Assembly (NCBI GenBank): GCA_963825865.1
Contig: CAWGVG010000033.1
Location: 1 to 64,000, forward strand
Length of the DNA: 64,000 nt
Direction: 5' to 3'
DNA from: an uncultured Nitrososphaeraceae archaeon
Lineage (GTDB): Archaea; Thermoproteota; Nitrososphaeria; Nitrososphaerales; Nitrososphaeraceae
The position numbers and the translations under genes are program-made. Of this stretch, positions 1,292-59,051 are shown one piece after another (position 1 is the stretch's first letter; each line of letters starts with the position of its first letter). Under the pieces are notes generated by a model that searched no databases, had not been told where the DNA came from, and saw only the letters and a list, made by a program, of their open reading frames with translations.

Positions 1292-1694
1292 AATCTTGTT
1301 TCTTACCCCTATTATTCTACAATTCACTCAGGTTTCGACATACAAGATGTTGCTGCTTCTTCTGTTTGCTTTCACGATCCATATTTAAGACGAGATCTAA
1401 TTTGTCATTATTTATTATTATGCTGTGACTCGAATCAAAGCCAGATAAATCCCCAAAGAAACTTCGACTGGAATCATAATCATAATCTCTATGCTCACGG
1501 CGATCATAGAAGAATAGCTTCTAGGTCGATGATAATGACCTCATCATACTCATGGATGCATCAACTGCATTTCTTTTGAACAATTAGCATATTGGACATG
1601 TGCATCTAAAAATAAGCTCATAAGCTGAGTAAGCATTAAAAGACAAGATATTGCTTAAAAACATTCAGGTCCTCAAGTGAAAATGGGTTGTTAA

Positions 1695-8049: not shown

Positions 8050-8780
8050 TTTAGAGTTTTACAAACCTGCCCTTATTAGAGCAAACTCGTGCTAGGGTAA
8101 TTAAAACCTTAATGGATGGAATCCAACTTAATATGTCAACCGAAGAATCTAAAAAATTACTAAAAAGACATGTAAACAGCAAAACAAATCTTGTGATTAT
8201 GTTTGTAGATATTAGTAACTCAACGGAAATGAGCCTATCTTTACCAGAGGACAAATTTGCTCTAATAGTGCAAATCTTTGCCCAAGAATTAAGTATAGCC
8301 ATATCAGGTTATGGTGGCTATGTATTCAAGTATGAAGGTGATGCTGTCATTGTATTATTTCCAGCAGAATATGATAAGTAAAAGCATGCAAAAATGCATT
8401 GAATTATTCGAGAGCGATTTTAGAAATCATAAGAGAAGTTATCAATCCTGCTTTTAAGGCAAATAAATTATCTGAAATCTCAGTAAGAACAGGATTGGAT
8501 CACGGTGATGCTCTAGTAGTGCTTTACGGCAAGAACTTAGAAAAGGCACACATAGATATAATCGGGTCTAGTATAAGTATGGAGCAAAGGTTGCATCTCT
8601 TGCACAGCCTAATCAGGTGTTGTTTACAATATTCTTGAGTCATCGATAAGCCACAAAGACTTTGTAAATAATAATAAGTTTATAGAGGTAAATCTCGATC
8701 CAACAAAATGGAGTTACCCTTCTCACTTGAATGCTGGAAGTATATATTGTGTATATGAGTATAGTTATATTGTCATCTAA
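8050..8780 (+). pseudogene. Class III adenylate/guanylate cyclase, N-terminally truncated and disrupted
   Basis: MFVDISNST, FKYEGDAV, RTGLDHG and DIIGSSIS motifs; disrupted at ~8380 (TAA/frameshift) and ~8580. Confidence 0.8.
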
Positions 8781-10028
8781 CTATTTTACCTATAGGAACA
8801 CTAGGTCTAAAGCGTAATGGCAGATGGTTTACTCCATGGAAAAACACTCCGTGAAGAGGTTTTAACGCTTCTTGTTTATATTCATCATCGAATCTTAAAT
8901 CATGTAATCTCTCGAGAATTATCTTCAATACTACCTGTGCTTCCAGACGAGCCAATGTAGATCCTAGACAAAAATGAATGCCGTGGCCAAAGGCGATATG
9001 AGCATTTGGATTACGTGCCATGTCAAATTGTTCTGGAAAATGGAAAATAGATTCATCATGGTTTGCTGATCCTATCCATATAATCATCCTTTGTCCATAT
9101 TGTATTTTTCGTCCACCAATATTGGTGTCGTGGATTGCGAACCGAAATAGTGCTTGAACAGGAGATCGGTAACGTAATGTTTCTTCTATCGCAGAAGGAA
9201 TTAAAGGGTAGGACTTATTATCCTGTAATAATAACAGTTTGAATTGTTGAGGATGTTCAAGCAAGGATCGAATTGTATTGCCTATTAGGTTTACTGTTGT
9301 TACATGTCCAGCTAAAAGTAAAAGTGAACAGAAGGCAAGAATTTCTTGCTCAGACAGAGAATCTCCATCAATCTCTGCATTCAATAGATTGCTTATTAGA
9401 TCATTGCGTCGGTATTGCTTTTCGTTTTCCAACAATATTACCAAAATATGAATCCATTTCATTTTGAACTTTTTTGAAAATGTGTTCTGAATTCTTGTCA
9501 GGAATGTTGCTGCCTACCTGTAGTTGATCCGAGTAACTGGTCTGCCCAATTTCTAAAGAGATCTTGATCCATGACTGGAACACCAACCAATTGTGCAATA
9601 ACTGTTACCGGCAATGGATATGCTAAATCGCTTATCAGATCCATTTTACCTTTTTCAATTATTTTATTTATCATATCATGGCCGATTTCTTCTATTGTTG
9701 GTTTTAGCTTGGATATTGTCTTAGGAGTAAAGGCTGAGGCAATGACGCTGCGTAGCTTGCTGTGATAGGGCGGATCAGATGTGAGCAGACTAGGCCGGAA
9801 ACCCTGCGGTTCTTGTTCTTTTTGTGATGATTTTTTTATGTTGGCTAATTTCTGAACGTCAGAGGAAAAATTTCTATAATCAGTGAGGATAGTTTGTGCA
9901 TCATTATAACCAAAGATTCCCCACATACTATTTTTATCATCATATGCGACGGGATCGAGATGTCTCATTTTTTTATAAAATGGAAAAGGATTCAACAGCT
10001 CTTGTGGCGATGGAAAGATATCAGCCAT
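8773..10028 (-). CDS. Cytochrome P450, split by frameshifts at ~9400-9550
   Basis: LLTSDPPYH, AGHVTT I-helix, EETLRY and heme motif FGHGIHFCLG. Confidence 0.92.
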
Positions 10029-11702: not shown

Positions 11703-12406
11703 CTATACGTCGTCTTCTTCCTCTCCTGTAGCACTTTTAACCTTTACATTTTCGCTTGTAACTTGGTCGCTTACTGTACGAGTTTCAATAACTGGCTTCT
11801 TTTTGACAGCTACTTCTTCTTTAACATAGGGCTGCTTTGTTACTTGTACTTCTTCTTTCTTTAATGGTATTTTAATTTCTGTTCTAGATTGTACTGGTCC
11901 TTCTGTTGCTTTTCTAGCATCACCAGTAACACGTCTTCTCTCAATAGATATTTCTTCATGTATTACTGGTACTTCAACTGTTTTAGTCTCAGTGAGTGGT
12001 TCTTTTGTTATAGTTGCTTCTTGTGCTGAATCCCTTTTAGATACATCTAACTTTTCTTCTGTTAATGGAACTGCGGTTTCTTCTGCTTCGCCTATAGTCT
12101 TGTCTCTTTTTGGCGTTGAAGTTTCCTCATCAGCTGCCCGATGATGATGACGGTGGTGAATCCCTCGAAAATCTATTCTCTGCATCTTCTTCAGAGATTC
12201 TGAATCGCAGTACAGTCACCATCATAGCTTTCAGCTAAATCTCTTGGAATGTAGAATTTTTTCTTATTTACCATTCCTCTCTGCACTAAAACATAATTCT
12301 GACCAACTTCCTGGACTTCTCCAAGATCTTCGTCGTTACTTCCTCTTGCTTCTTTCTTTGTTACATCATTCCAATCTATGCTACTGCCGCTTGTAGTACT
12401 TGCCAT
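11703..12406 (-). CDS. YsnF/AvaK (DUF2382) domain protein, frameshift near 12190-12215
   Basis: N-terminal KKEARG..DEDLGEVQEV module plus VPLTEEKLDV, VEVPVIHEEISIERR and IPLKKEEVQV..KEEV repeats; paralogous to 12843..13592. Confidence 0.85.
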
Positions 12407-12842: not shown

Positions 12843-13592
12843 CTAGTGCTTTTTCATTTCACCTTCTTCTTCTTCTACTAATTCCTCTCCAGCTGCGTTT
12901 CTAACACTGACTTTTTCACTTCTTACCTGTTCAGTTATTGTTTTAGTCTCAGTAACAGCTTTTTTCCTTATCACTATTTCTTCTTTTATATATGGTTTCT
13001 TTGAAACCACCACATCTTCTCTCTTTAACGGTATATTAATCTCTGTTTTAGATTGCGTTATTTCGTGAGATGATGATGACGACTTGGCTGGTACTGTTGA
13101 AATTGTTGATGATTCCGTCGCCTTGTCTGCTTCTGCTACCGATCTCCTTTCAATAATTAACTCTTCATGCGTTAACTCTACTTCAACTGTCTTAGTTTCC
13201 TTTACTGGTTTCTTTATAACTTTTGCTTGTACTACAGATTCTTTTTTAGACACCTCCAACCTTTCCTCAGTTACGGGAATGGGGCTTTCAGGATCTCTTG
13301 TTTGAACTTTTGATCTCTCTTCTCTTTCTGTTGCTGATGATGATGTGTCAGAGATAAATTTCTCTTTTGCTTCTTCCTCTGTGATTTCAAAAAGTAAAAT
13401 GCGACCATTATATCCATGTGGAATAGACTTTGGAATGCAAAACTTTTCCTTGCTTATAGTCCCTCTTTGTGTAAGAACATAATTTTCATTTACCTCTTGT
13501 ACTTCTCCCAAATCTGCATTGTTAAGACCTCTAGCTTCTTTCTTTATAACATCATTCCAATCTGTAACAGGACCAAATGTAGTGGATTCCAT
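12843..13592 (-). CDS. YsnF/AvaK (DUF2382) domain protein
   Basis: Intact 249-aa ORF with IPVTEERLEV, VELTHEELIIERR and IPLKREDVVV..KEEIVIRK. Confidence 0.88.
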   Translation of the reverse strand: MESTTFGPVTDWNDVIKKEARGLNNADLGEVQEVNENYVLTQRGTISKEKFCIPKSIPHGYNGRILLFEITEEEAKEKFISDTSSSATEREERSKVQTRDPESPIPVTEERLEVSKKESVVQAKVIKKPVKETKTVEVELTHEELIIERRSVAEADKATESSTISTVPAKSSSSSHEITQSKTEINIPLKREDVVVSKKPYIKEEIVIRKKAVTETKTITEQVRSEKVSVRNAAGEELVEEEEGEMKKH

Positions 13593-14011: not shown

Positions 14012-14599
14012 ATGGAAAGCAACATTGATCAAGAAAAACCTGGCTATCCCAAAGAATTGACCGACGAAGCAGGAACCTCAAACGAACAACAACAGCAGGA
14101 ACAAATAATTCCCGTTATAGAAGAAGAATTCTCGATTTCAAAGGAAACCACAGTCAAAGAAGCAAAAATAGAAAAGAGATGGGTTACCAAGACTAAGACA
14201 GTCAAGGTACCTATAACCTATGAGGAAGTATATATTAATGGAAAGAAAATGAAATCAGTAGAAGATAATTCTGTTTTCTCCTTAATAAAGGATAAGCTGA
14301 GTAGTAGCATAGGCAGTGATTCGGACAAATCAGTCAAGCTTTCTGTAAGAAAAAAAGGTGATCTTAAAGAAGGAGAGCTAGTTCCTTTATTCCCCCCCTC
14401 TTCTGATAATAATGCTTCAGAAACTGAAAAAGTGATTCCTCTTATGGGAGAGGAGTTTGAAATTAATAAGAAAATGGTCAAACTTTCAGAAATTGTAATA
14501 AGAAAAAGAAGAGTTACTGAAAAAAAGAAAGTCGATGTTGATATAAAAAAGGAAGAGGTTACGATAAAATATCCTGACGGCAATACGGAACGATTATAA
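14012..14599 (+). CDS. YsnF/AvaK (DUF2382) domain protein
   Basis: IPVIEEEF.ISK and IPLMGEEFEINKK...EIVIRKRRVTE repeats. Confidence 0.85.
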   Translation: MESNIDQEKPGYPKELTDEAGTSNEQQQQEQIIPVIEEEFSISKETTVKEAKIEKRWVTKTKTVKVPITYEEVYINGKKMKSVEDNSVFSLIKDKLSSSIGSDSDKSVKLSVRKKGDLKEGELVPLFPPSSDNNASETEKVIPLMGEEFEINKKMVKLSEIVIRKRRVTEKKKVDVDIKKEEVTIKYPDGNTERL

Positions 14600-17656: not shown

Positions 17657-18796
17657 AGTTAAGTATCTTATTTTATATCAACTATTTATTACCAAAATGA
17701 GAGTTATTTTAGATAACAAGAGCTTTAGCTATGTTATTTCTTCTCATGCATATGAAGCCACATCCTCTTCAATTATCTGCAGTTCAGAAAAGAGAATTAT
17801 TTAATTTTATCAAGAACACCAAAAATAAGGAAGAATACAGACGAGCGATAGCTGTAAAGCAGAAGATAGAAGGACAGTCATTTAGAACTATAGCGAAAAA
17901 CCTTGGTGTTAATTACAGGAACGTATACCGTATGGTAAAGTCATACAAGGAACAGGGTTTAGATGGTATAAAGAGTAAAAGAAAGAACGCAGGCAGAATA
18001 CCAAAGATATCATCTGATAAGAACAAACTGATGATTAAAGAAGAAATAATATCAAAGTCTCCAAGAACATTTGGATACCTAAAGAATACTTGGAGTATTA
18101 GGCTTTTAGCAGCATACCTTACTAGGATTCTAGGAATTAATGTTAGTCCAATGCAGATGTGGAGAATTGTTCATGACCTCGGTATAGTCTCCAAAAAACC
18201 AAAACTGGCCTTAGAACATGAGTCAGATTATGAAGAGAAAAAGAAAACTATAGACAATTACAAGAAGGTAGCGGCAGCACTTTTAAAAAAGGATTCTACT
18301 TGGATTCGAAGATGAGACATGGCTACACTTGCAGCCATATATAACAAATAATTACATGATGAAAGGCTACCAGCAAAAGATATTCCATAAAGGCTCAAAC
18401 GCAAAGGTCAATGCATTCATAACCCTTACCTATCCTTTAAACAAGGTCAAATTCAAAATAAGCAAATCTAGAACAAGCGGTGATTTCATAGACCATCTTA
18501 GAAGCATAAAGCGCTATGTCAAGAATAACGAAATAAAACGCTTCATCCTAGTAATAGATAATGCTTCATTTCATGTAAGCAGAAAGACTAAACAATTTGT
18601 AGAAAAACAATCAAACTGGTTGACTGTGATATTTCTACCAAATCGTTCACCAAATCTAAACCCAGTAGAGACAAGAGTGAACAGAAATCTGGATGTATGT
18701 GCCAATCATAACTACGAAACAGAAGAGAATTTGATAAAGGCAATAAGAAGATATCTTAGATCTATATATAGTTGGCCTAAATTATGATACTTAACT
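17657..18796 (+). mobile_element. IS630-family insertion sequence
   Basis: TIR AGTTAAGTATC at 17657 and GATACTTAACT ending at 18796 (imperfect match extends ~30 bp). TA duplicated at 17655-56 and 18797-98 in a CTAG target. Confidence 0.92.
17731..18787 (+). CDS. IS630 transposase (HTH ORF plus DDE ORF joined by a -1 frameshift)
   Basis: A-AAA-AAG at 18285-18291 leads into GFEDET; later DNASFH and SPNLNPVE. Confidence 0.9.
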
Positions 18797-22102: not shown

Positions 22103-22906
22103 ATGAATAACAGAGAATCACGATCGTCGTTAGCAGGTAGAACAGCACTAGTCACAGGAGGTAGCCGTGGTGTGGGTGCAGCTACTTCAAAGCTATTGGC
22201 TGCAAGAGGTGCAAATGTTATTGTTAATTATTTCAAAAACAAGGATGCTGCGGATAAAGTAGTTGAGCAATTAAATAAAGAAGCACGAGGAACAGAAGGG
22301 TATGCGATAGCCATTCAAGCTGATGTAAGGAAACAAACCCAAGTCGAATACATGGTAGGAGAAGCCATTCAACGATATGGACGTATAGATATCCTAGTCA
22401 ACAATGCTATGGTTGGTCGATATTTTCTTAAGCCGTTCTTAGAAACGACATGGGATGACTTTTTAGAAAAATTCAATGACGAAATTAAAGTCTGCATACG
22501 AAGTAACAAGAGCAGTCTTATCGGATATGGTGAAGCAAAACTATGGTCGAATTATATATGTCGCAACAGGAAGTGCAAAATATCCAAATCCTCCTGGTGC
22601 AATTGCTTTTGGAACAGCAAAAGCAGGCTTGGTGACATTTGCAAAATACATAGCACAAGAGTTTGGAAGAAAAGGAATCACAGCAAACATAGTATCACCT
22701 AGACTGATAGAAACAGATCAAAATGCTCATTTTCCTGCAGAGATAAAACAGCAATATGCATCATTGACTACTATTGGACGCACAGGTAAGCCACAGGTAA
22801 GCCCGAAGACGTGGCAAATGTAATAGCATTTTTTGCTAGTGATGAAAGCGAATACATCACAGGAACTTATGCACCTGTAGATGCGGGACTTGTTATTGGT
22901 GGATAA
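22103..22906 (+). CDS. SDR oxidoreductase (FabG-like), frameshifted at ~22480 and by an 11-bp duplication at 22781-22802
   Basis: TGGSRGVG, LVNNA, FGTAK in place of YxxxK, and C-terminal ITG..APVDAG. Confidence 0.8.
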
Positions 22907-26477: not shown

Positions 26478-27507
26478 ATGACTATAAAGAATTTTGGAAT
26501 ACTAGTACATGGAGGAGCAGGCAGCAATAAAAGAAAGACAAAAAAAAATTTTAATGAAACAGAAATTGCAAAAACAATTGAACAAGCTGCGTGCAGTGGT
26601 TTTGATATCCTGAAAAACCATACTACTAACACAAATAATAATAATACTAACACTTTTGCTCTTGATGCTGTAGAAATTGCTGTGGTACTTATGGAAGATA
26701 GTGGTTTATTTGATGCAGGTATTCTTGGTTCATACCTTACAGCTGATGCAGAGGTAGAAATGGATGCGTCCATAATGAACGGAAAGGATTTATCAGCAGG
26801 CTCTGTTGGAATGGTAACAGAATATACAGAATCCAATAAAATTAGCTAGGTTAGTAATGGAACATACTGATCATGTAATGCTAGTTTCTGATGGTGTCAC
26901 GCAGTTAGCAAAGTTTTTCGATAATGAAATAAAATATAGAAAACCTACCAAACAAAATTTAAAGAAGTATGTCAATTACTTAAAGAATAAGGATAAAAAA
27001 ATTGTGAAAAAAGAATGGCCCAAAAATCATAAATTATTTTTTTCTCTTCCTAAATTTACCTATGATCATTACGGAACAGTAGGCGCTGTTGCAATCGATA
27101 GAGAAGGAAATGTAGCATCCGCAGTTTCGACAGGTGGAAGATGGTTTAAAATGCATGGCAGAATAGGTGATTCTGCAATCATTGGTTCCGGTTTGTATGC
27201 AGATAATGAATCAGGCGCAGCATGTATTACTGGTGTTGGAGAATTGATTATGCGACTATGCCTTGCAAAGACAACATGTGAATATATGAGAGGAGAAAGC
27301 GCACTAACCTCAAGTAAAAAGGCAATTGAATTAATAACACAGAAATTTGGAAAAAATACTGGAGGCATAATTGCAGTAGACAAAAATGGCCAATTTGGTG
27401 TAGAAATGAATACCCAATCAATGCCAGTAGCGTTATATTCCAGCAATACAGGTAATAGGGTTAAATTAGCGCTCAGAAGAGAGGAAGCTCATCATCTAAT
27501 ATTGTAA
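26478..27507 (+). CDS. iaaA: Isoaspartyl peptidase/L-asparaginase (Ntn hydrolase), frameshift near 26825
   Basis: VHGGAG, EMDASIM.G, GTVGAVA (nucleophile Thr), STGG and GRIGDS motifs. Confidence 0.9.
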
Positions 27508-35233: not shown

Positions 35234-37799
35234 ATGATGCAGCGAGTAGGAGCATGTCTCCTTTTTGCGTCATTTATAATATTTACACTTTTGCTATTAT
35301 CCTCGATATTTATATCATCGTTATTATCATCACCAACATCACCAAATTCTAATGCTATTGCATACGGACAAGATGAAAAGAAAGGTGCATATGTTGATCA
35401 AATCAATTTTGTTCATTATCTTGATGAAAACGTGGCGCTTCAAGATCTAAAGGTTGGTAAAATTGATACGTATTTTTTTAATATACCTTTAGAAGTAGTC
35501 TCAGACACAAAGAATGATCCAAATCTTAACGTCTATGATACAACTGGTGGCTCAGAAGATCTCCTGTTAAATCCAGCTCCATCAAAAAACCCAGCTACCG
35601 GTGATTTTAATCCCTTCTCAATTAAGCAAGTAAGATTTGCTATGAACTATTTGTTAGATAGAGACTTTATAGTCAATGAAATTTTGAAAGGCTATGGGTC
35701 TCCAATGAATGATCCATTTGGATTGTATTCTCCAGAATACCTCAATATAATTGACACAGTACAGTCATTTGGATTTAGGCACAACCCAGAATTGGCCCAA
35801 AAGATAATTTCAGATGCTCTGAAGCAGGCTGGCGCGGTAAAAGATGTCCGCGGTGGTGATGGTGGTAAATGGACCTATAATGGTAAACCTATTACGATTA
35901 AAATCTTGATTCGGGCGATATTTCTAATAGGAAGTCAATTGGAGAGCTGGTAGCATCAAATTTGGAGACATTTGGATTTAATGTTGTAAGGGATTATGGC
36001 GACTTAAACAAGGCAAACTCTATAATATATGGCTCTGACCCACAAGACTTGAAGTGGAACATCTACGAAGAAGCAGTTCGCTTCATCTGGCTTTGCAAAA
36101 GTACGATCCAGGGAGTTGTAGCCCAGATGTACGCTCCTTGGAGATGCGAATATGCCTGGAACTCAAAATCCAGCATTTTGGAATTATAAAAACACTACAC
36201 TTGACACAATTACACAGAAAATCACTTTGGAAACTATACTTCTGAAAATGAACGAAACAATCTTTTAAGAAGCGCTATGAAAAACGGAATCCAAGAATCT
36301 GTTAGAATTTTTATAGCTAAAGACATAAACCCTTATGTTGCCACAAAAAATGTCAAAGGTTTGATAAATGATTTTGGCGCAGGAATTACAAGCAGATTTT
36401 CGTTAATTAACAGCAGATTGGACGACACTGGTACAAATAATATCAATGTTGGCATGAAGCAAATCAACGTGGGAGCATGGAACGGTGTTGCAGGATTCAA
36501 AGATGCATACAGCACACAAATGTAGAACAACTATATCAGATCCAGGAGTATACAGTGATCCATACACTGGAGAAGTAATACCAGTCCGCACGCCATGGAC
36601 TGATATTCAAACAAAGGGACCTCATGGTAAGGTTGCGGTATCCCCTGATGCGATCATATGGGATCCCGTAAACCAGCGTTGGAAGAAGGTTAGTGAAAAT
36701 AACAATAATAACAATAACAATGCTACTTCATCCATCAGTAAAGTCACTTATGATTTGAAATACAGCAAATGGCACAATGGAATAATGATGGATAAAAATG
36801 ACCTATTATACTCTGCCTATTTTGGACATGAATGGGGAACAAATACAGGGCAAAGCGACAAAACAGTGGATTCTGAATATACTAGCCAGGCTGGCACAGT
36901 CTATAAAATATGATAAAGGTATAAGGTTTCTCTCTGATAGCAAAGTAGAAGTCGTACCGTGATTTTTGGCACTTTGATAATAAGGAAATTGCGGGAGCTG
37001 CAGGTATATGGGCAGGTGAGCCTTGGGAAATCGGCCGCAGCGACAGAACGTCTGGTTACAGCCGGCAAGTTCGCCTTTTCAAAAACGGATTCCACTTCAA
37101 AAGGTGTGGATTGGCTTTCATCTAATAATCACCGATCTCATGCAACCGCAATAAAAGAAGAACTTCAAAAGATGAAAGACTGAAGGCTATGTACCTATCG
37201 CATTGAGGGATACGGTAATGTAGTTCAGGCAAAAAAAAGATATGATGCAAGCATCAACTGGATAACGCAACACAATAACGCTATAATAGGCAATGGTCCA
37301 TTTTACCTTGATAATTACAATCCTGCAGGAGGCATCATTACAATAAAGGCATTTCGTGACAATTCCTATCCATTTGAGGTAGGATACTGGAATAATAAAT
37401 ACGAACATCCGAAATTGGCCACAATTGAAAATGTAAATGATGTTCCAAGATTCATTCGTATAGGCCAACCGGTAAATATAGGAATACAAGTCCAATGTGG
37501 ATGGAAAACCTAGTAACAATGCTATAGTAAACTATTACCTATCAAATAGTAATGGAAGTGTTGTGTTAAGTGGGGTAGCAAAACCTTCTTCTTCTCTTCC
37601 TCCTACTAATAATAGCAATCCCACAACAGCAAATAATGCTGGTATATTCACAATTGATCTTAGCAGCAAGGATACTGCTAAATTATCTACGGGTCCTAGT
37701 ATTCTAAAGATATTTGCAAACAGTTTACAGGCGTACAAGCCCTATATACTCACAAAAACCATTATAGCTGTGAAAAGACAAACGATATCACAGGGGTAG
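35234..37799 (+). CDS. ABC transporter substrate-binding protein (family 5, peptide/nickel), heavily frameshifted
   Basis: Signal segment, LLLNPA...FNPF....VRFAMNYLLDR, WHNG..MD..D and IGNGPFYL motifs spread across many short ORFs. Confidence 0.85.
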
Positions 37800-38681: not shown

Positions 38682-39645
38682 TTATTGTCTAGTCTGGTTT
38701 TGTTGTTGCACTTGTGGTTGCTGCTGTCCTTGTAGTGGTAGCTGGAAAAATGGAAACGCACCAGTTCCTCCTAGAGAATAGGGCATTTGTCCATTCCATC
38801 TATTGATAGATTGCCATTGCAAATACTGTGGACTTTGTCTAAGCTGTTCGGTAATTATTTTGATAGCCTGTCCTTCACCCGATGCTCTGGCTACATTTGC
38901 TCTTGCTTGTGCCTGTGCTTGAACAACTGTCTGGTTTGCAATTACCTGTACTGACTTTAGATTATTTTGTTCAGTCAAGTATTTTTGAAATGCTACTACT
39001 TTTTGTTCAATTTGAGACGCAAATGCTTCTGAGAATTTAAAGTCAGTTATAAACACGTTCTCAACGTTTATGTCTCTTGCTGAGAGAGTGTTACGAATGG
39101 CAGTAGCTATTACCCCTTTCGCGGTTTCTCTTTTTGTTATGAGTTCTTCGGCGTTGAATTTTGCGACACTTGCTTTAACAGATTCTTGGATTGTAGGGGC
39201 AATTATTCTATCTGAATAGTCAGCACCTAGCTGTTGATATATCACGTTGGCATCACTTGGATTGATATGGTAGTTCAATGCTATCGTCGTTGCTACCTCT
39301 TGCAGGTCGTTTGAAGCAGCCGATGCATCAGCTTGGAATTTTAATGTACTGTACTTCTAACTGTATGACCTGTTCAGCAAATGGTACTATGAAATGTAGT
39401 CCTTCTCCTAATACCCTATTCTCAACTGCACCTACATACAGAACAACCCCTCTATGTCCTGCCTGTACAATGACTACTGATTCTGACATGACTATGATTA
39501 TTATGATAAATGTCACGATTCCTGCTAAAATTTTTAGTTTGTTAGACCCCAAGATGGATCCTGACTGTCCTGTATATTCAAGTGGCTCTCCGTCAGGGGT
39601 TCTTCTGTCATACGGTTTACCCGTTTTCTTAAAGGGATTCCTCAT
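38682..39645 (-). CDS. Prohibitin/band 7 (SPFH) protein, frameshifted near 39280-39350
   Basis: TM, V.AGHRGVV..GLHF..PF, FNAEELITKR and IEQKVVA motifs. Confidence 0.9.
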
Positions 39646-41006: not shown

Positions 41007-42212
41007 TTATGGAGGTATATTATTTTTTATGATATTAGAATATAATATATTATTTTTTTCTGCCCCACTTTCCACTGCTATAGCATTCGATGATGATGAT
41101 TGTGGATTTACTATGACAGTATTATCATGTACCCTGTTATTAAGAGATTCTTTATCTAAATCTATCCCACTAATGCTGTTTGAAACCGTATTGTTGAAAA
41201 TTTCGTTATCATGTGACTCGGAAATAGTTATAGCTTTTTCCTCGCCGCTTATCAGATTATCCCTTGCAGTAGAATCAAACATATTTCTGCTAAACATTAT
41301 ACCTCTATTGACATTATTGTAAACGGTGTTTTTTTCTATTGTTATACGATAGCAATTCAAAGAACAAATTATACCGATAGAGCCATTATCATGAACTGTA
41401 TTGTTGCGGATTACCATATCATGGGTTCCTGTATGAGGATCTAATCCATAGTGCCCGTTGTCATGTACGTCGTTATTTTCAATAAGGAAGTTGCCTACAC
41501 CATTTGAATAAAAGCCAAAGTAAAGATGATGTATATTATTATTCACTATTATGCTTCCATCTCCACCAGCGTATCTCAAACCAGAAGTTCCTCCACCAAT
41601 TCCTGACTCATATCCTAAATACGCAATTTCTGAATTTGTAATGTTTGTCGTTCCAGTAGCGCTGTTCCGCACTGTTATGTATGGCCTTGGTCCACCAGAT
41701 GACACCTCGTATTTATTTCCAACCAATATCCTTGTTCCGTTACTTATTGCATAATCGTTTGTCTGAGGATCCCATGAAGTTACTTTCACTGAATCAATCT
41801 TTAAACTACCTGATACATCTATAGGATATGCAGTTCTTCCATCTGCTATTATTTTTAACCATTTTACATTATCTTTTGAGTCAATATTAAGTACTGCTCC
41901 TTTATCAATCATAATGCCTGCATTTAACAGCCAGACTCCGTCGGCTTGTTTATTTAACACACTATCATCATTAAGCTGATTATGTATATCGGTTAGACTT
42001 GCCGATTGACATTTTATTGTAATTGTTCTATTAGGGGGATCATAGCTAACGCAGCTTTCACTAGGAGAAGGAGAAGGAGCAGTATCAGTTGCAGTTGTTA
42101 TCGATTTTATCGCCGCTCCTCCGTCTGGCATTTCAGAATCGATTAAAGCTATTAATGACATAATTGTAATTAGCAGATACCTTAGAGAGGAAAAATCAAC
42201 TTTTATTTTCAA
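41007..42212 (-). CDS. Second AlgG-like beta-helix protein (paralog of 4985..6175)
   Basis: Shares ASLTDI.NQLNDDSVL, GVWLLNAGI, SLKIDSVKVTSW, SEIAYLGYE and YGLDPHTGTHDM. TTG start at 42212 chosen by alignment with the paralog. Confidence 0.75.
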   Translation of the reverse strand: MKIKVDFSSLRYLLITIMSLIALIDSEMPDGGAAIKSITTATDTAPSPSPSESCVSYDPPNRTITIKCQSASLTDIHNQLNDDSVLNKQADGVWLLNAGIMIDKGAVLNIDSKDNVKWLKIIADGRTAYPIDVSGSLKIDSVKVTSWDPQTNDYAISNGTRILVGNKYEVSSGGPRPYITVRNSATGTTNITNSEIAYLGYESGIGGGTSGLRYAGGDGSIIVNNNIHHLYFGFYSNGVGNFLIENNDVHDNGHYGLDPHTGTHDMVIRNNTVHDNGSIGIICSLNCYRITIEKNTVYNNVNRGIMFSRNMFDSTARDNLISGEEKAITISESHDNEIFNNTVSNSISGIDLDKESLNNRVHDNTVIVNPQSSSSNAIAVESGAEKNNILYSNIIKNNIPP

Positions 42213-42256
42213 GAGATATTGCTCTAATTTGCAATAGTGGTTATATATAAATTCTG

Positions 42257-42281
42257 TACAAAATGCTATAAACATTTTGTA
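42257..42281. promoter_or_regulatory. Inverted repeat TACAAAATG-N7-CATTTTGTA just upstream of the TATA box of the beta-helix gene
   Basis: Read directly; TTTATATATAA box on the minus strand at ~42241-42251. Confidence 0.4.
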
Positions 42282-43817: not shown

Positions 43818-45226
43818 TTGATATTGGGCATTATTATAAATCGCTCCATACTAGAAAGACATCACCAGAATTATCGTTCTTTAAACATTGCGCTTTCTGC
43901 TTTAGAATATTCAATTAAAAATGTAGATCCCAAAATTCTTGTTAATAAAACGGTGAAGTTAAAAGGTTCAAATTTAAGCTTGAATGATATTCAAGGTAAA
44001 ACGGTAGAACTAAATCTCGATGATTTCAATTCTGTGTACATAGTTGGCGCAGGAAAGGCAACAGCTAGAATGACAGCGGCTCTCTGTAATATTTTAAAAG
44101 GAAGAATTTCATATGGTGCAATCAATGTTCCCTATCATACCAAGGGACAAATTGATAGAATTTCGATAACAGAAGCTAATCATCCGTTACCTGATGAATC
44201 AGGAGTTAATGGGACAAAAAAAATTGTCAATATTTTGAAAAAAACTAAGAGCATAGACCTAGTTTTTGTTTTGATTTCAGGCGGGGGTTCTGCACTGCTG
44301 CTGCTTTCCTGCTGAAGGCATAACGGTATTAAACAAACAAGAAATTGCAAGCACTATCATGTCTCGTGGGGCGTCCATTCATGAAATCAATGTTGTACGG
44401 AAACACTTATCGATGATAAAAGGTGGCCAGCTCTTAAGATATGTCAATAGGGGTTGCACTGTAGTTTCTTTAATTTTGTCAGACGTTATAGGAGATAATA
44501 TAGAGATAATTGCATCTGGTCCTACAGGTACCTGACAGTTCGACATTTAAAGAAGCTGGGTTAGTTCTAAAAAAATATCATCTTTGGAATGATAAAAATG
44601 CACAGAATACTGCAGTCAAAGAAGTAATAATTAATGGAATGAAAGGTAATATCAATGATACCCCAAAACCTGGAGATCCAATTTTTAAGAATGTAAATAA
44701 TTTGCTGATAGGTAACAATACACTTGTCTGCGAAAATGCTGTTAAATATTTAAAAAAACATAGGTTGCAGGCTTTAAATTTAGGTTCATCATTTGATGGT
44801 GAAGCAAAGAATTTTGGAAGAACGCTTGCAAGGTTAGCCCATAATTTTGGGATATCCTTTTCACCATTCGGTTTCGTTTTAGGAGGAGAAACGACTGTTA
44901 AATTGAATAAAAAAAAAAATAATGGAGCCGGAGGAAGAAATCAAGAGGCTATACTAGCAGCTATATTAAATTTCAAGTTTCAATGTCGTGATGATATTAG
45001 TATTGTGTGTATGGGAACAGATGGGATAGATGGAAACACTGATGCCGCCGGGGGCCTTTTAACTCCCAAAACGATCTCTATAACCAATGAAAAGAAATTA
45101 GAACTGAAAAGGTACCTAAACAATCATGATAGCTACAATGCACTGAAAAAAGTAAACTCATTAATAATCACTGGAAGAACCGGAACTAACGTAAATGATA
45201 TCGCCATAATTTGCAGATTGAAGTAG
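43818..45226 (+). CDS. Glycerate 2-kinase (MOFRL family), frameshifted
   Basis: GAGKA, HPLPD, LISGGGSAL, GGETTV, GGRNQE, GTDGIDG and TGTNVND motifs. Confidence 0.92.
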
Positions 45227-54038: not shown

Positions 54039-54981
54039 TCAATTGTCCAGATGACTTAAATGCATTTTAGACAAATCTAGACGACTTTTTAGATCCTTGA
54101 ATCTGTTTCTTACGGTCACCTCAGTTACTCCGGCGGCATTTGAAATATCCAATTGAGTCCTGTGTTCTCCAGTATTGAGGCACGATAAATAGAGGATTGA
54201 CGCAGCAAGACCCATAGGATCTTTTCCAGCCGATAAGCCATTCTGCGTGACGTCTTTCATGATATTCATTGCCCGGTATTTTGTTTTCTCACTTATGTCA
54301 GCTTTGTTTGCAACTCTTACAATACACTTTACAAGATCAATCATTGGAACTTTAAGATCAAGTTCAAGCACCAGTATTCTATAAGTTCTTGAGAGCTCTG
54401 TGCGTCTTATATTACTGGCTATAGCAACATCATTTAAAGTTCTCGAGACTCCCATTTCTCTACATGCGATATAGACTACAGCAGCTGAGTACTGCAGGTA
54501 TAGACCGCCCACGAATAAACCCCCTATCCTGAGCTTTTCTGTATATGTATGCACTCTTTTCAATTATTGCATCAGATAGTCCGACCTTGCTTTTCAATAT
54601 ATCAAGTTGTTCAAAAGCCTTCTTAAGATTCCTATCCGTAGAACTGTGAGCCTGCGTTCTTAAGTCCCATACCCTTAGCCTTTCCATTGTCGAACGCATG
54701 GCTGCATCAATTTTGCGTCCACTAGCATCCTTATCTGTCCTTCCAATAATAGTAGCAAGACCCATGTCATGACGAGCCAAGGAAGTTGGAATTCCTGTTC
54801 TGCTTCTGTCATTTACCTCCTCAGTATTGAATGCGCGCCATTCGGGTCGAATTTCCTGAATCTTGTCAGAAATTACAAGTCCGCAGTTACTGCAAATAAG
54901 CTCACCAGATTCAAGATCTGTAATTGTCTGACTTTTATTACATATAGAACATGTTATTGTTGAAGCTTTGACTTTTAACAT
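54039..54981 (-). CDS. tfb: Transcription initiation factor IIB (TFB), frameshift near 54490
   Basis: Zn ribbon CSIC...CSNCG, PEWRAF, HD.GL.T, cyclin repeats, GKDPMG and VTEVTVRNRF. Confidence 0.95.
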
Positions 54982-55080
54982 AATGTGTATACCAAATATA
55001 TTGTCGTTAATCAGACATTTAAACAATATTACATATGAAACTTTAGGAGAAGAAAGCATAGATATACAACCCTGCAATTA

Positions 55081-55579: not shown

Positions 55580-56747
55580 AGTCAAGTGTCATAACTAATG
55601 TCGTCATACCATCTTCCAAATCGTTTGTCCAAATATTCTGATACTGCAGCTTTCTGGTCTTCCATATGTTCATAGAATCTATTCGCACATACATCTGACT
55701 TTATTTGCTGGTTTACTTTCCTTTCATTCGGATTTAGGTATGGTGCTTTCTTTGGAAGGTGGATTATGGTCAGCCAGTCTTCTTTCTCTGTGCATTGATA
55801 TAATTCCGTACCATTAGGCTTACATGATATGAAGCGTTATCCCATATGAGTACCAGTCTTTTCCACCATATCATTTTTCATAATGTTTGTCTTGAGATTC
55901 TCTAGATGGTCGATAGTATTCGTAGAATCCATTTTATCATAGAAATCATACGTCATTAATTTCTCTTCAGGCCATACCATGGATATGTATGCAGAGAACT
56001 TCTTTCTACTACCAGTATGTTCTATCCTTTGTTGCTCACCTTCAAAACTCATGGATTTTCGAATACAAGGTTTCTGTGTTATAATATAGTCTCATCTTCA
56101 AATGCTACTACAACTCCCTTTTTTTTTGAGCTGAAGCTATCTGTTTGTAGTTTTGCACTTTCTCTTTTCCCTCTTCATAATCCTTTCCTCCATGTAGCAG
56201 TTCCAGTTTTGGTCTTTTGCACCTAACTCCTAAATCTTTTGTTTATTCTCTGCAGGTGCTTGAAACTGATTGGAATTCCTAGCTCATTTGTCAGACAGTT
56301 TGCAAGTAATCTCAGACTCCATGTATTTCTAAGATAACCAAAGATGTGCGGGTCGTTAAATAATGCTGATAGAATAATCTCTCTTTGTTTTCATCTGTTA
56401 TGCCAGATTTTGTTCCGCCAGGTTTCTTCATCTTTATTCTATCTATCCCACTTTGGATATAGGCAATAACCCATCTCTGTACAGCCTGCTGCTGACTCCG
56501 TGTTCATTTGCTATGTCTTCGTAAGTTCTACCTTCAGCTTTTTGGAGTATAGCCAGTAGCCTGCGGTATTCTTTTTTGTTACCCGTATTCTTCATAAATG
56601 ACTTTAATTTGTTCCTCTGTCCTATGGTAAGTTTGAGTTTGAAAGGATGATTCACAGAATGAAAATATCTCATTTACTAAGCTTTAACTATTTCCAAATC
56701 TAGGTTATGTAATGAACAAATAACGACATAAATTCAGACACTTCACT
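55580..56747 (-). mobile_element. Second IS630-family element, transposase disrupted by indels
   Basis: TIRs AGTCAAGTGTC (55580) and GACACTTCACT (ends 56747), TA on both sides. NTWSLR, an A9 slippery run leading into AFEDET, DNAS.H and APYLNPNE motifs. Confidence 0.85.
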
Positions 56748-57169: not shown

Positions 57170-57263
57170 AATTAACTAACTAACTTTTTCTGCATACAGA
57201 TTGGCTATAACAGAAAACGCCATAACCTAAATGGATAAATTTAGTATGAACTAAACAAAACCT

Positions 57264-57929
57264 GTGAAGATAAATCATTGTACATTTCCAGAAGGACTGT
57301 TTTATGATATCGAGAACTTTGTATGGATAAATATCGATACTGATAAACTAGTAACTGTTGGAATTACTTCTGTATTAGCGTCTATTGCTGGAAAGCTATC
57401 TACCATCAAATTGAAACAAATTGGCACAAAAATGGAAAAAGGAAGAAGCATCGGGACAATAGAAAGTATCAAGTATTTTGGGGTAGTGCGAACTCCTGTA
57501 AGCGGTAGGCTTGTAGAAATCAATGAGTCCATAATTAATCGACCCAAGATAGCAAATGATTTTCCATACACAGAAGGTTGGTTTGCCAAGATAGAGTGTT
57601 CTAACCTCCCAGAAGATCTTAAAACTCTGGAAACCATTGAGAATTCTCAAAAGAAAATAAATTCTCTAATTGAAAAACTACATATCAGATGCTTTATAGC
57701 ATTCCCAGACTATCAGATGTTTGAGATAGGAGTTGAATGCGCTGCTACTCTTACAAAGCTGGACGAACTAGTGAAAGAAATAGCCATCGGCGAAGTAGTA
57801 CACCTAGTGTCCGACAATCCAACAGCAGATCTGGAAATCATAAGATGGTCAGAACAAAACAAACAGTCTCTCTTAGAGATGAGAAGTGAGGCAAACCTTT
57901 TTCATTTTATACTAAAGAAGATAAAATAA
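57264..57929 (+). CDS. Lipoyl-domain (GcvH/LbpA-like) protein fused to a TusA-family sulfur carrier domain
   Basis: GTIESIK70 lipoylation motif, PVSG...N..PY.EGW, Cys6 and Cys143; then G.EC159...IGEVVHLVSD.P....I.RW...F.F.LKK. Confidence 0.85.
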   Translation: MKINHCTFPEGLFYDIENFVWINIDTDKLVTVGITSVLASIAGKLSTIKLKQIGTKMEKGRSIGTIESIKYFGVVRTPVSGRLVEINESIINRPKIANDFPYTEGWFAKIECSNLPEDLKTLETIENSQKKINSLIEKLHIRCFIAFPDYQMFEIGVECAATLTKLDELVKEIAIGEVVHLVSDNPTADLEIIRWSEQNKQSLLEMRSEANLFHFILKKIK

Positions 57930-57940
57930 AAATTGCGCAG

Positions 57941-58093
57941 CTATTCTTGATGTATTGCACTTTTCTATCGAATTAGCAACCATATTTCTTCATTCAGTCC
58001 ATGACCAGTCATAATTCTTCACATTAGGATAGCCTAGCAAATATTTCAGAACGAACTATGTATAGGACACCATTCTCCTATCCTGGTAACTAT
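57941..58093 (-). pseudogene. C-terminal relic of a rhodanese (SseA/CysA-type thiosulfate sulfurtransferase)
   Basis: RIGE..SYT*FVLKYLLGYPNVKNYDWSWTE*RNMVANSIEK; Trp positions replaced by TAG (58056-58) and TGA (57990-92). Confidence 0.8.
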
Positions 58094-58184: not shown

Positions 58185-59051
58185 TTATTCATTCAAAAGA
58201 TCTCTAGATCCTACCTCATTTTTCAAACCATAATAGCCAGCCAACCTATCCATATCTTTATTACTTATCTTACACTTATCATGTGCCAATTTCAAACAGT
58301 AAGGATACCCCGAAATACTATGAAAAGATAACCTATCTAATATTGTTTCAATTTCAGACTCACTGATGTTACCAATTGCAGTACCTGATATTTCAACCTT
58401 GATTATAGGTGTACATTCTTTTAACCTCGCGTATATTTCAATAACTTCGCAGTGTTGGATATACTGTTTATTTTCGAATGGAATACTAAACCCTGCAGAT
58501 TTCCCTATCTGATTAAAGTAGTAAATATCGGCAGCCTTCGCACCTAATGATCCAAACTGTGTTCTTGTATCTGAATTCTTTGATATGAATAGCACTTTCG
58601 GATACTTCTTAAGGATATCACTAATTTCCGATACATCACAAGGCTTATTTCTAACGAATCTCGAGATAAGAGACCCGTCAATAGAAATAATATCCACCTT
58701 TTCATTTTCGTCTTCTATTACGCGTTTTGCTACATTTAATTCCATTAAATTGGCTTTGGATTCTAAGGATTCACTTCTAACCGTATCTAGTCCATAATCC
58801 CATTCCCCATATTGAATTTCGCTTTTAGAATCGGCTGCAATTGCATCAACAATATAAAAATCAAGACCCTGAAAAGCCCTCTTGTTCCAACTGCTATCTA
58901 TTCCAACAGAAGTACAATGTTTTTGGTTTGGTTCATATTTAATCCAGCATGACGAGGCCGCATATATAACGTTCTGATAATTAACATCCTTGATTTGCGA
59001 TAATTTGATTTCTTTGCTACGTATGGCATCAATATATACGTCATGAAGCAT
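58185..59051 (-). CDS. nurA: NurA 5'-3' nuclease
   Basis: GIDSS, ISIDGSL, ISKNS and GYPYCL..AH..C.I motifs. Confidence 0.85.
   Translation of the reverse strand: MLHDVYIDAIRSKEIKLSQIKDVNYQNVIYAASSCWIKYEPNQKHCTSVGIDSSWNKRAFQGLDFYIVDAIAADSKSEIQYGEWDYGLDTVRSESLESKANLMELNVAKRVIEDENEKVDIISIDGSLISRFVRNKPCDVSEISDILKKYPKVLFISKNSDTRTQFGSLGAKAADIYYFNQIGKSAGFSIPFENKQYIQHCEVIEIYARLKECTPIIKVEISGTAIGNISESEIETILDRLSFHSISGYPYCLKLAHDKCKISNKDMDRLAGYYGLKNEVGSRDLLNE

What the first reader, a model, noticed from the sequence alone, without database searches (positions are those of the whole stretch)
57264..57929. LbpA-type lipoyl domain fused to TusA: a one-polypeptide sulfur relay
Seen: intact 221-aa ORF with lipoyl Lys70 (ESIKYFG), Cys6 (HCTFPEGLFYD), Cys143 (LHIRC) and a TusA domain with Cys159 (CAAT rather than CPxP). 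Established: LbpA proteins of the sulfur-oxidising sHdr pathway differ from GcvH by conserved N- and C-terminal cysteines, and TusA carries persulfide in that pathway. No gcvT/gcvP or shdr genes are in the window. Inference: a Rosetta-stone fusion passing persulfide from TusA to lipoyl or Cys groups, for sulfur trafficking, detoxification or cofactor synthesis in an organism not known as a sulfur oxidiser. Homologs may already sit in databases annotated as GcvH.
Basis: partly seen in the sequence, partly recalled or inferred. Interest (0 to 1): 0.72.

Follow-up and report, generated by a model that had tools for sequence, protein, structure and literature searches.

The report
LbpA-like two-cysteine domain fused to TusA
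This soil-archaeon gene encodes a conserved protein joining a lipoyl-carrier-like domain to a TusA sulfur-carrier domain; its three invariant cysteines, not the lipoyl lysine, look like the working parts, so it is probably a cysteine-based sulfur shuttle.

Summary
Window 57264..57929 (+) is an intact 221-aa ORF with a GcvH-fold domain, a TusA domain, and Cys6, Lys70, Cys143 and Cys159 as described.

It belongs to an archaeal family of more than 1000 database proteins, named there as GcvH, TusA family or hypothetical. No paper on it was found.

- **LbpA-like features:** Cys6 and Cys143 fall in the columns of the N- and C-terminal cysteines that define LbpA. The domain branches away from canonical GcvH.
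- **Lysine not conserved:** the lipoyl lysine is present in only 11 of 31 diverse family members (Arg in 17), against 57 of 58 stand-alone GcvH-like proteins. The three cysteines are near-invariant.
- **No lipoate machinery reported:** a published census finds no lipoate ligase, lipoyl synthase, GcvH or sHdr in 18 of 18 Nitrososphaera and Nitrosocosmicus genomes.
- **Rhodanese neighbour:** a tandem rhodanese lies directly downstream in 10 of 16 informative related loci. In the window it is only a decayed 36-codon remnant.

Best reading: a lipoate-independent, cysteine-based sulfane-sulfur carrier. It is not a glycine-cleavage H protein or an sHdr component. Cysteine distances could not be measured.

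I rate it a new variant of a known kind, of moderate interest.

The parts
57264..57929 (+). Intact gene for the 221-aa two-domain protein (GTG start, TAA stop)
   Evidence: It is 97-99% identical to nine 221-aa proteins from metagenomes (P0002-P0010) and 58-72% identical to the 12 full-length Nitrososphaeraceae/Nitrososphaera genome loci L001-L013. It keeps every invariant and near-invariant family residue.
57264..57692 (+). LbpA-like module, residues 1-143: GcvH fold with N-terminal Cys6 and a cysteine (Cys143) just after the last helix
   Evidence: Pfam GCV_H 14-132. Foldseek matches to GcvH. Two-Cys columns shared with 18 of 18 stand-alone two-Cys proteins. NCBIfam GcvH models are below cut-off: 95.9 vs 117 and 72.9 vs 115.85.
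57279..57281 (+). Cys6 codon (TGT)
   Evidence: Cys in 30 of 31 diverse members and 120 of 121 close members, the other being a gap.
57471..57473 (+). Lys70 codon (AAG), the position of the lipoyl lysine
   Evidence: Aligns with the ESVK lysine of solved GcvH. Lys in 114 and Arg in 7 of 121 close members. Lys 11, Arg 17, other 3 of 31 diverse members.
57690..57692 (+). Cys143 codon (TGC), equivalent to the C-terminal cysteine of LbpA
   Evidence: Cys in 30 of 31 and 121 of 121. Same column as the C-terminal Cys of 18 of 18 two-Cys proteins.
57711..57926 (+). TusA domain, residues 150-221 (beta-alpha-beta-alpha-beta-beta)
   Evidence: Pfam TusA 156-219. Secondary structure. Foldseek to E. coli TusA, TM of target 0.88-0.91.
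57738..57740 (+). Cys159 codon (TGC), the TusA active-site cysteine at the start of helix 159-172; local motif CAAT instead of CPxP
   Evidence: Cys in 31 of 31 and 121 of 121. Pro follows the Cys in 5 of 31 diverse members and a full CPxP occurs in 2 of 31, P0136 and P0162 (read from the alignment).
57960..58067 (-). Decayed remnant of the neighbouring tandem-rhodanese gene: only its last 36 codons, with two in-frame stops
   Evidence: tblastn with 10 of 10 locus rhodaneses gives 72-81% identity, E 1e-10 to 1e-12, to their residues ~245-280. The translation shows W-to-stop at two places and no intact CRIGER loop. The rest of the gene's place is taken by a NurA gene at 58185..59051 (-).
57235..57243 (+). 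A/T-rich ATAAATTTA box about 25 nt upstream of the GTG; possibly an archaeal TATA box for a leaderless transcript
   Evidence: Read. The promoter reading is my inference and no tool tested it.

Best explanation
The gene encodes a member of a conserved archaeal family. An LbpA-type module (GcvH fold plus the N- and C-terminal cysteine pair) is fused to a TusA sulfur-carrier domain.

I think it is a cysteine-based carrier of sulfane sulfur (persulfide). TusA Cys159 is loaded by a sulfurtransferase, most plausibly the tandem rhodanese encoded next door in relatives. The Cys6/Cys143 pair of the LbpA-like module then acts as the next acceptor or as a resolving dithiol.

Lipoate is not a conserved part of this, and Lys70 is probably unmodified in this lineage. 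The protein is neither the H protein of glycine cleavage nor part of an sHdr sulfur-oxidation system. It more likely serves housekeeping sulfur trafficking or sulfane-sulfur handling.

Shown: the architecture, the fold, the conservation pattern and the neighbourhood. Inferred: persulfide carriage, the donor, the direction of transfer and the physiological role.
For: 1. Three cysteines are the conserved core. C6 is Cys in 30 of 31, C143 in 30 of 31 and C159 in 31 of 31 diverse members. In close members the counts are 120, 121 and 121 of 121.
2. C6 and C143 coincide with the LbpA cysteine pair (the definition is in passages of PMC6067878, and of bioRxiv 10.64898/2026.10.01.755906). The preprint reports that the pair sits at disulfide distance in an AlphaFold model of Hyphomicrobium LbpA2.
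3. C159 is at the N-cap of TusA helix 1, where TusA carries its persulfide. Basal members keep CPxP.
4. The lysine is free to change only in the fusion family: Lys in 15 of 35 fusion rows against 57 of 58 stand-alone rows, with at least 8 changes.
5. A published census detects no lipoylation enzymes, GcvH or sHdr in 18 of 18 Nitrososphaera/Nitrosocosmicus genomes. The glycine cleavage family is reported lost or contracted in the ancestor of ammonia-oxidising archaea (passage of PMC7554672).
6. A 280-aa tandem rhodanese with a CRIGERS loop lies convergently 6-128 nt downstream in 10 of 16 loci that have enough flank. These include a Nitrosocosmicus agrestis locus only 41% identical to the query.
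7. Rhodanese-TusA sulfur exchange and TusA-LbpA co-purification are documented for sHdr systems (passages of PMC11094781).
8. The model is compact, with pTM 0.88 and linker pLDDT of 90 or more.
Against: - No biochemistry exists for any member, as far as could find.
C143 lies 16 residues before C159, on the far side of TusA strand 1, so direct intramolecular transfer is not assured.
- The rhodanese is convergent, not co-transcribed. It is missing in 6 of 16 informative loci and is dead in this window.
- Lys70 is kept in 114 of 121 close relatives. That leaves room for a lysine-dependent role in this subclade.
- The census is HMM-based and could miss divergent ligases. It does list LipA and Lpl in a few rows with placeholder names near the Nitrososphaera rows.
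- The window's own genome could not be searched.
- The TusA Pfam score is only 1 bit above its cut-off.
Confidence: 0.5

Rival explanations
1. One reading: a lipoylated LbpA-TusA relay, in which persulfide passes from TusA to the dihydrolipoyl arm on Lys70, serving an sHdr-like or other lipoate-dependent sulfur pathway.
For: Lys70 is present and aligned with the lipoyl lysine and is kept in 114 of 121 close relatives. The aromatic residue after the lysine resembles LbpA (W/F) rather than GcvH (A). In the published census, LbpA1 is scored present without sHdr in 2 of the 11 Nitrosocosmicus rows and in 11 rows with placeholder names listed beside the Nitrososphaera rows. These hits may be this family.
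Against: Lys is replaced in 20 of 31 diverse members and in 6 of the 18 related genome loci where the residue could be read, including all four readable Nitrosocosmicus-type loci, while the cysteines stay. There is no Lpl, LipA, LipB, LipM, LipS1/S2 or sHdr in 18 of 18 Nitrososphaera/Nitrosocosmicus rows. None was found in the window.
Confidence: 0.12
2. A thiol-disulfide redox, metal-binding or sensing protein. The three cysteines would form a redox switch or bind a metal or Fe-S centre, with no sulfane-sulfur transfer.
For: There are three near-invariant cysteines and a conserved basic residue at the hairpin tip: K or R in 28 of 31 members. The LbpA Cys pair is modelled at disulfide distance. 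A GcvH-like protein is reported to promote oxidative-stress resistance in Staphylococcus aureus (abstract of PMC12440151 in the listing only).
Against: The third cysteine sits exactly at the TusA persulfide site, and the rest of the TusA signature is kept: the family consensus reads SDDPTA..E..RWS..TG. A sulfurtransferase is the conserved neighbour. No conserved His or fourth Cys was seen.
Confidence: 0.2
3. A genuine H protein of the glycine cleavage system that merely carries an extra domain.
For: Databases name it so. It has the GcvH fold and the lysine is present.
Against: It scores below both NCBIfam GcvH cut-offs. It lies outside the clade of Cys-less GcvH-like proteins, which is split off by a branch with bootstrap 96 / SH-aLRT 91; the 8 canonical GcvH form a 100/94 clade inside that group. 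The lysine is not conserved. No gcvT/gcvP was found in the window. GcvH is scored absent in 18 of 18 related genomes.
Confidence: 0.03
4. A relic in this particular genome. The gene is still open but no longer used, because its partner rhodanese has decayed and the region is full of broken genes.
For: The rhodanese survives only as a remnant with stops. Many genes in the window are split or truncated.
Against: The ORF is full length, keeps every conserved family residue, and is 97-99% identical to nine other 221-aa proteins from separate contigs.
Confidence: 0.1

Closest known systems
[quoted passage not shown] 2018, PMC6067878)
   Same: GcvH fold. N-terminal Cys in a GCxxP(D/E)xLxY context and a C-terminal Cys after the last helix, in the same alignment columns. 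An aromatic residue follows the lysine. The domain is nearer to two-Cys proteins than to canonical GcvH on the tree. A functional link to TusA is documented for LbpA.
   Different: It is fused to TusA. The lysine is not conserved in the family, whereas it is reported as strictly conserved in LbpA. No shdr, sLpl(AB) or LipS1/S2 genes are nearby or reported in related genomes. The hosts are ammonia-oxidising and other archaea, not known sHdr sulfur oxidisers.
TusA (PF01206; E. coli TusA, PDB 3lvj/3lvk/1dcj)
   Same: The fold matches (TM of target 0.85-0.91). The cysteine sits at the start of helix 1. The family consensus reads SDDPTA..E..RWS..TG in the second half.
   Different: The motif is CAAT rather than CPxP; CPxP occurs in only 2 of 31 diverse family members. 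The Pfam score is marginal. The domain is the C-terminal part of a larger protein.
GcvH (glycine cleavage H protein)
   Same: Fold and lysine position; the database name.
   Different: It is below the NCBIfam cut-offs and carries the two extra cysteines. It lies outside the group of Cys-less GcvH-like proteins that contains the canonical GcvH clade. There is no T or P gene context.
Rhodanese-TusA-DsrE/LbpA sulfur-transferase cascades (Tanabe et al. 2024, PMC11094781)
   Same: A rhodanese next to a TusA module and an LbpA-like module gives the same cast of carriers.
   Different: Here two of the carriers are one polypeptide. No DsrE or sHdr was seen. The rhodanese is a tandem CRIGERS type and is convergently oriented.

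Membership tests
LbpA | GcvH-type fold | tested here: met
   Pfam GCV_H E 9.3e-29. Foldseek to GcvH, TM of target up to 0.93.
LbpA | [quoted passage not shown] | tested here: met
   Cys6 and Cys143 share columns with the cysteines of 18 of 18 stand-alone two-Cys proteins and with none of 8 canonical GcvH. The stand-alone proteins are called LbpA-like from this motif and from their sources (Acidiferrobacter, Hydrogenophilales, Burkholderiales), not from verified shdr context.
LbpA | Strictly conserved lipoyl lysine | tested here: inconclusive
   It is present in this protein (Lys70) and in 114 of 121 close relatives. It is Lys in only 11 of 31 diverse family members.
LbpA | Encoded in or next to an shdr cluster, with dedicated sLpl(AB)/LipS1/S2 | tested here: not met
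   None among the 49 ORFs scanned in the window or in the conserved or annotated neighbours of the 19 related loci (17 ORFs scanned). The sHdr, Lpl and LipS1/S2 columns are 0 in 18 of 18 Nitrososphaera/Nitrosocosmicus rows of the published census. The window's own genome was not searchable.
LbpA | Actually lipoylated | not testable with these tools
   Needs mass spectrometry.
TusA | TusA fold above the Pfam gathering score | tested here: met
   29.6 bits against 28.6, which is marginal. Foldseek 3lvj_C TM of target 0.88.
TusA | Active-site cysteine at the N-terminus of helix 1 | tested here: met
   Cys159 starts helix 159-172. It is invariant in 31 of 31 and 121 of 121.
   The motif here is CAAT. 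CPxP occurs in only 2 of 31 diverse members and C-P in 5 of 31.
GcvH | Scores above the NCBIfam GcvH cut-offs | tested here: not met
   NF002270 95.9 against 117; TIGR00527 72.9 against 115.85.
GcvH | Groups with canonical GcvH and sits with gcvT/gcvP | tested here: not met
   A branch with support 96/91 separates 32 Cys-less rows, including all 8 canonical GcvH, from the fusions and the two-Cys proteins. No T or P genes were found in the window.

The most novel reading that the evidence does not exclude
The fusion family is a lipoate-free descendant or precursor of LbpA. On this reading the 'lipoyl' domain has become an apo scaffold whose cysteine pair takes persulfide directly from the fused TusA. 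With the neighbouring rhodanese this gives a three-station, cofactor-independent sulfur relay. The relay would be widespread in Nitrososphaeria, Bathyarchaeia, Aigarchaeota-type and Thermoplasmatota archaea that have no sHdr. If so, it reads as a Rosetta stone for the still unexplained conserved cysteines of LbpA: they would be the TusA-facing sulfur acceptor site. It would also point to an unrecognised sulfane-sulfur pathway in ammonia-oxidising archaea.
Probability: 0.3. Interest if true: 0.7.

Novelty: new variant of a known kind. Interest (0 to 1): 0.5.

Why it matters
The role of the two conserved LbpA cysteines is open. The 2026 preprint read shows they are dispensable for ligase recognition and says they may still have an important function.

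This family keeps those cysteines and welds them to TusA, while letting the lipoyl lysine drift to arginine. It lives in organisms reported to lack lipoylation enzymes. That argues the cysteine pair has a lipoate-independent job linked to TusA.

It also flags an unstudied sulfur-carrier module in abundant soil nitrifiers, and it corrects the 'glycine cleavage H protein' names that many of the database entries seen here carry.

Tried and rejected
- **Frameshift artefact.** I considered this because the window is rich in split genes. I rejected it: the same 219-232-aa architecture recurs in 118 of the 120 listed homologues and in 15 uninterrupted full-length genome loci.
- **Cysteine distances.** I wanted to measure them on the AF2 model. 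The model file is not placed in /data, so this was not possible.
- **LbpA structure by sequence.** None appeared at E<=0.01; all 13 hits were GcvH.
- **MST-type neighbour.** I considered that the neighbouring rhodanese might be a 3-mercaptopyruvate sulfurtransferase. NCBIfam gives 147 bits against a cut-off of 250, and the loop reads CRIGERS, which I recall as the thiosulfate-sulfurtransferase type. I therefore dropped an MST/dihydrolipoate story.
- **Other syntenic genes in the window.** I searched with all locus ORFs. Only the fusion and the rhodanese tail matched.
- **Literature.** Searches found no description of a GcvH/LbpA-TusA fusion.
- **Complex prediction.** Not used. A rhodanese with its carrier is the kind of pair the tool text says is rarely worth a job.

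Full report
**Observation**

The window carries one ORF at 57264..57929 on the plus strand, with a GTG start, 221 codons and no internal stop. A fifth cysteine at 112 is not conserved: it is Cys in 18 of 121 close homologues.

- Pfam finds GCV_H at residues 14-132 (E 9.3e-29) and TusA at 156-219 (29.6 bits against a cut-off of 28.6).
- Both NCBIfam GcvH models fall below their cut-offs: 95.9 vs 117 and 72.9 vs 115.85.
- Lys70 aligns with the lipoyl lysine of solved H proteins.
- An AF2 model built on a 45-row family alignment (A1) has mean pLDDT 96.3 and pTM 0.88.
- Foldseek matches its N part to GcvH structures (TM of target up to 0.93) and its C part to E. coli TusA (0.88-0.91). No solved chain spans both domains.

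**Organism and state of the window**

The genes and composition point to a Nitrososphaeraceae-type archaeon. A TFB-type transcription factor is present, GC is about 35%, and all 19 related genome loci come from Nitrososphaeraceae, Nitrososphaera, Nitrososphaerales or Nitrosocosmicus records.

Many genes in the window are split or truncated: a Na/Ca exchanger, a P450, the TFB, a DUF4147/MOFRL glycerate kinase, an asparaginase and others. I therefore asked whether the fusion could be a frameshift artefact. It is not.

- The word-indexed search returned 1119 homologues. The 120 listed are 192-246 aa long, and 118 of them carry both Pfam domains.
- The exhaustive search found 32 representative clusters at E<=1e-30 and full-length two-domain relatives down to 25-28% identity.
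- 15 of the 19 genome loci carry it uninterrupted and full length. L016 is cut by the contig end and L015's match begins with a non-start codon. L017 and L018 are frameshifted there.

**Taxonomic range and database names**

Source names place members in the following groups:
- Nitrososphaeraceae and Nitrosocosmicus
- Bathyarchaeia
- Aigarchaeota / Calditenuaceae
- Thermoprotei
- Thermoplasmatota (Sysuiplasma)
- one Methanomassiliicoccales MAG

The databases name it 'glycine cleavage system H protein', 'glycine cleavage system H lipoate-binding protein/TusA-related sulfurtransferase', 'sulfurtransferase TusA family protein' or 'hypothetical protein'.

**What is conserved**

I aligned the window's protein with 30 representatives that I picked because they cover the whole query (31 rows). 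I also aligned it with the 120 homologues listed (121 rows).

| Residue | 31 diverse rows | 121 close rows |
|---|---|---|
| Cys6 | 30 | 120 (one gap) |
| Cys143 | 30 | 121 |
| Cys159 | 31 | 121 |
| Lys70 | Lys 11, Arg 17, V/T/S 3 | Lys 114, Arg 7 |

In the genome loci the residue at position 70 is as follows:
- Lys in L001-L010, L013 and L016
- Arg in L011, L012, L014, L017 and L019
- Thr in L015 (Nitrosocosmicus agrestis)

On the tree data set, Lys is present in 57 of 58 stand-alone GcvH-like rows but in only 15 of 35 fusion rows. At least 8 Lys/non-Lys changes are needed among the fusion rows. Constraint on the lysine has therefore been relaxed specifically in the fusion family, while a basic residue is still preferred (K or R in 28 of 31).

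**LbpA or GcvH?**

[quoted passage not shown] The 2026 preprint places them at 7 and 145 in Thioalkalivibrio LbpA2. It reports them at disulfide distance in a model of Hyphomicrobium LbpA2, and dispensable for ligase recognition (passages).

Among the hits are about 145-aa stand-alone proteins with exactly this pattern. Two of their clusters come from Acidiferrobacter and from Hydrogenophilales/Burkholderiales.

I aligned 6 fusions, 18 such two-Cys proteins and 8 canonical ESVKA GcvH.
- Cys6 and Cys143 share columns with the cysteines of 18 of 18 two-Cys proteins.
- GcvH has no residue or a non-Cys residue there.
- The residue after the lysine is aromatic in the fusions and the two-Cys proteins, and Ala in 7 of 8 GcvH.

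I then built a careful ML tree of 93 rows.
- Rows: 35 fusion N-domains and 58 stand-alone proteins.
- Left out: 62 of the 150 representatives, as fragments, multi-domain proteins or proteins outside 120-170 aa.
- Added: 5 rows.
- Flaw: a few N-domain cuts were imperfect, for example P0032 at 128.

Results of the tree:
- 28 fusions, the window's included, fall in one group (bootstrap 99 / SH-aLRT 96).
- 32 Cys-less rows, including all 8 canonical GcvH, are split off by a 96/91 branch.
- The two-Cys proteins lie between these groups.
- One fusion (P0147) nests among the two-Cys proteins.
- With 144 columns many forks are unresolved, the tree is unrooted, and the rows were sampled by similarity to the query.

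**Is lipoate available?**

The archaeal presence/absence table of PMC10332631 is supplement s009.xlsx. I read its header and its part 16. [quoted passage not shown]

- All 7 Nitrososphaera rows are zero throughout.
- 8 of 11 Nitrosocosmicus rows are zero throughout. Two have only LbpA1 = 1 and one has only DHDL = 1.
- sHdr is 0 in every row of that part.
- Rows with placeholder names listed beside these show LbpA1 = 1 without sHdr in 11 more cases, and LipA and/or Lpl in a few. I assume from recall that these rows are relatives.

The LbpA1 hits without sHdr may be this very family, but I could not check that. A passage of PMC7554672 says the glycine cleavage family was lost or contracted in the ancestor of ammonia-oxidising archaea.

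These are HMM-based calls on other genomes, not on the window's.

**Neighbourhood**

In 10 of the 19 loci a roughly 280-aa protein with two rhodanese domains lies convergently 6-128 nt beyond the fusion's stop.
- Three further loci end too soon to tell.
- Six have other genes there: a TYW1-like radical SAM gene in L009 and L011, and an unannotated 237-aa ORF in the four Nitrosocosmicus-type loci.

The rhodanese has a CRIGERS active-site loop in all 10.

In the window, tblastn with all 10 rhodaneses finds only their last 36 residues, at 58067..57960 on the minus strand (72-81% identity, E 1e-10 to 1e-12). That stretch holds two tryptophan-to-stop changes and has no intact active-site loop. A NurA gene (58185..59051, minus) fills the rest of the space.

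So the synteny is ancestral, and the partner gene has decayed in this genome while the fusion stayed intact.

**Mechanism**

Shown:
- an LbpA-type two-cysteine module rigidly joined to a TusA module;
- three cysteines under strong constraint;
- a lysine that is not under constraint;
- a sulfurtransferase as the recurrent neighbour.

From established knowledge (passages of PMC11094781):
- TusA carries persulfide on this cysteine.
- Rhodaneses exchange sulfur with TusA.
- Aquifex TusA co-purifies with LbpA proteins.

Inferred:
- Cys159 is loaded by the rhodanese or another donor.
- The Cys6/Cys143 pair is the next acceptor or a resolving dithiol.
- Lipoate plays no necessary part.
- The role is housekeeping sulfur trafficking or sulfane-sulfur handling.

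I put this at about 0.5.

**Novelty**

No paper describing a GcvH/LbpA-TusA fusion was found in six full-text searches. bioRxiv supplements were closed, and the PDF supplements of PMC10332631 could not be read, so a mention there cannot be excluded.

The architecture is catalogued in databases but unstudied. I rate it a new variant of a known kind. Its value is as a natural experiment on the unexplained LbpA cysteine pair, and as a pointer to an unstudied sulfur carrier in soil nitrifiers.

Noticed in passing
window 142-1327, 8773-10028, 43818-45226, 54039-55077, 22103-22702, 26857-27507, 35234-35953, 38682-39278: Many genes appear split into two ORFs or truncated. Split: a Na/Ca exchanger, a P450, a DUF4147/MOFRL glycerate kinase and TFB. 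Truncated: a short-chain dehydrogenase, an asparaginase, a solute-binding protein and a Band 7 protein. ORFs of >=110 aa are sparse for an archaeon. The rhodanese remnant carries substitution-type stops, which suggests real gene decay rather than only sequencing indels.
   Followed up: partly
window 17731-18787 (+) and 56443-56673 (-): An IS630-like transposase lies in two ORFs (HTH domains, then DDE_3). A 76-aa HTH_23 fragment about 600 nt upstream of the fusion gene may be a transposase remnant. Mobile elements may explain the rearranged surroundings of the fusion.
   Followed up: no
window 11703-12185 (-), 12843-13592 (-), 14012-14599 (+): Three neighbouring genes with DUF2382 domains.
   Followed up: no
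window 4985-6175 (+) and 41007-42275 (-): Two NosD / right-handed beta-helix proteins.
   Followed up: no
protein P0168 (one search hit, 1391 aa; not in the window): A giant protein with three GCV_H domains, followed by FAD_binding_4/FAD-oxidase_C, 4Fe-4S ferredoxin and two CCG (HdrD-like) domains. This is a separate natural fusion of lipoyl-type domains to a heterodisulfide-reductase-like module.
   Followed up: no
L017 8001-8691, L018 3461-4145, L019 8001-8690: Two Nitrosocosmicus-type MAG loci carry frameshifted copies of the fusion gene. L018 and L019 come from the same MAG on different contigs, one broken and one intact. This could be a duplicate, a strain mix or an assembly error.
   Followed up: no
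window 57302-57637 (-) and 57396-57650 (-): Antisense ORFs inside the fusion gene recur in relatives (cluster 2). I take them for shadow ORFs of the conserved coding strand.
   Followed up: partly
L011 2013-10099; L007 and L010 likewise: In one subgroup of relatives the fusion sits among tRNA-modification and housekeeping genes: a YchF-type GTPase, Kae1/TsaD, a Bud32-like kinase, Ham1 and, after the fusion (and the rhodanese, where present), a TYW1-like radical SAM enzyme. This could hint at a tRNA-thiolation link or be plain synteny.
   Followed up: no
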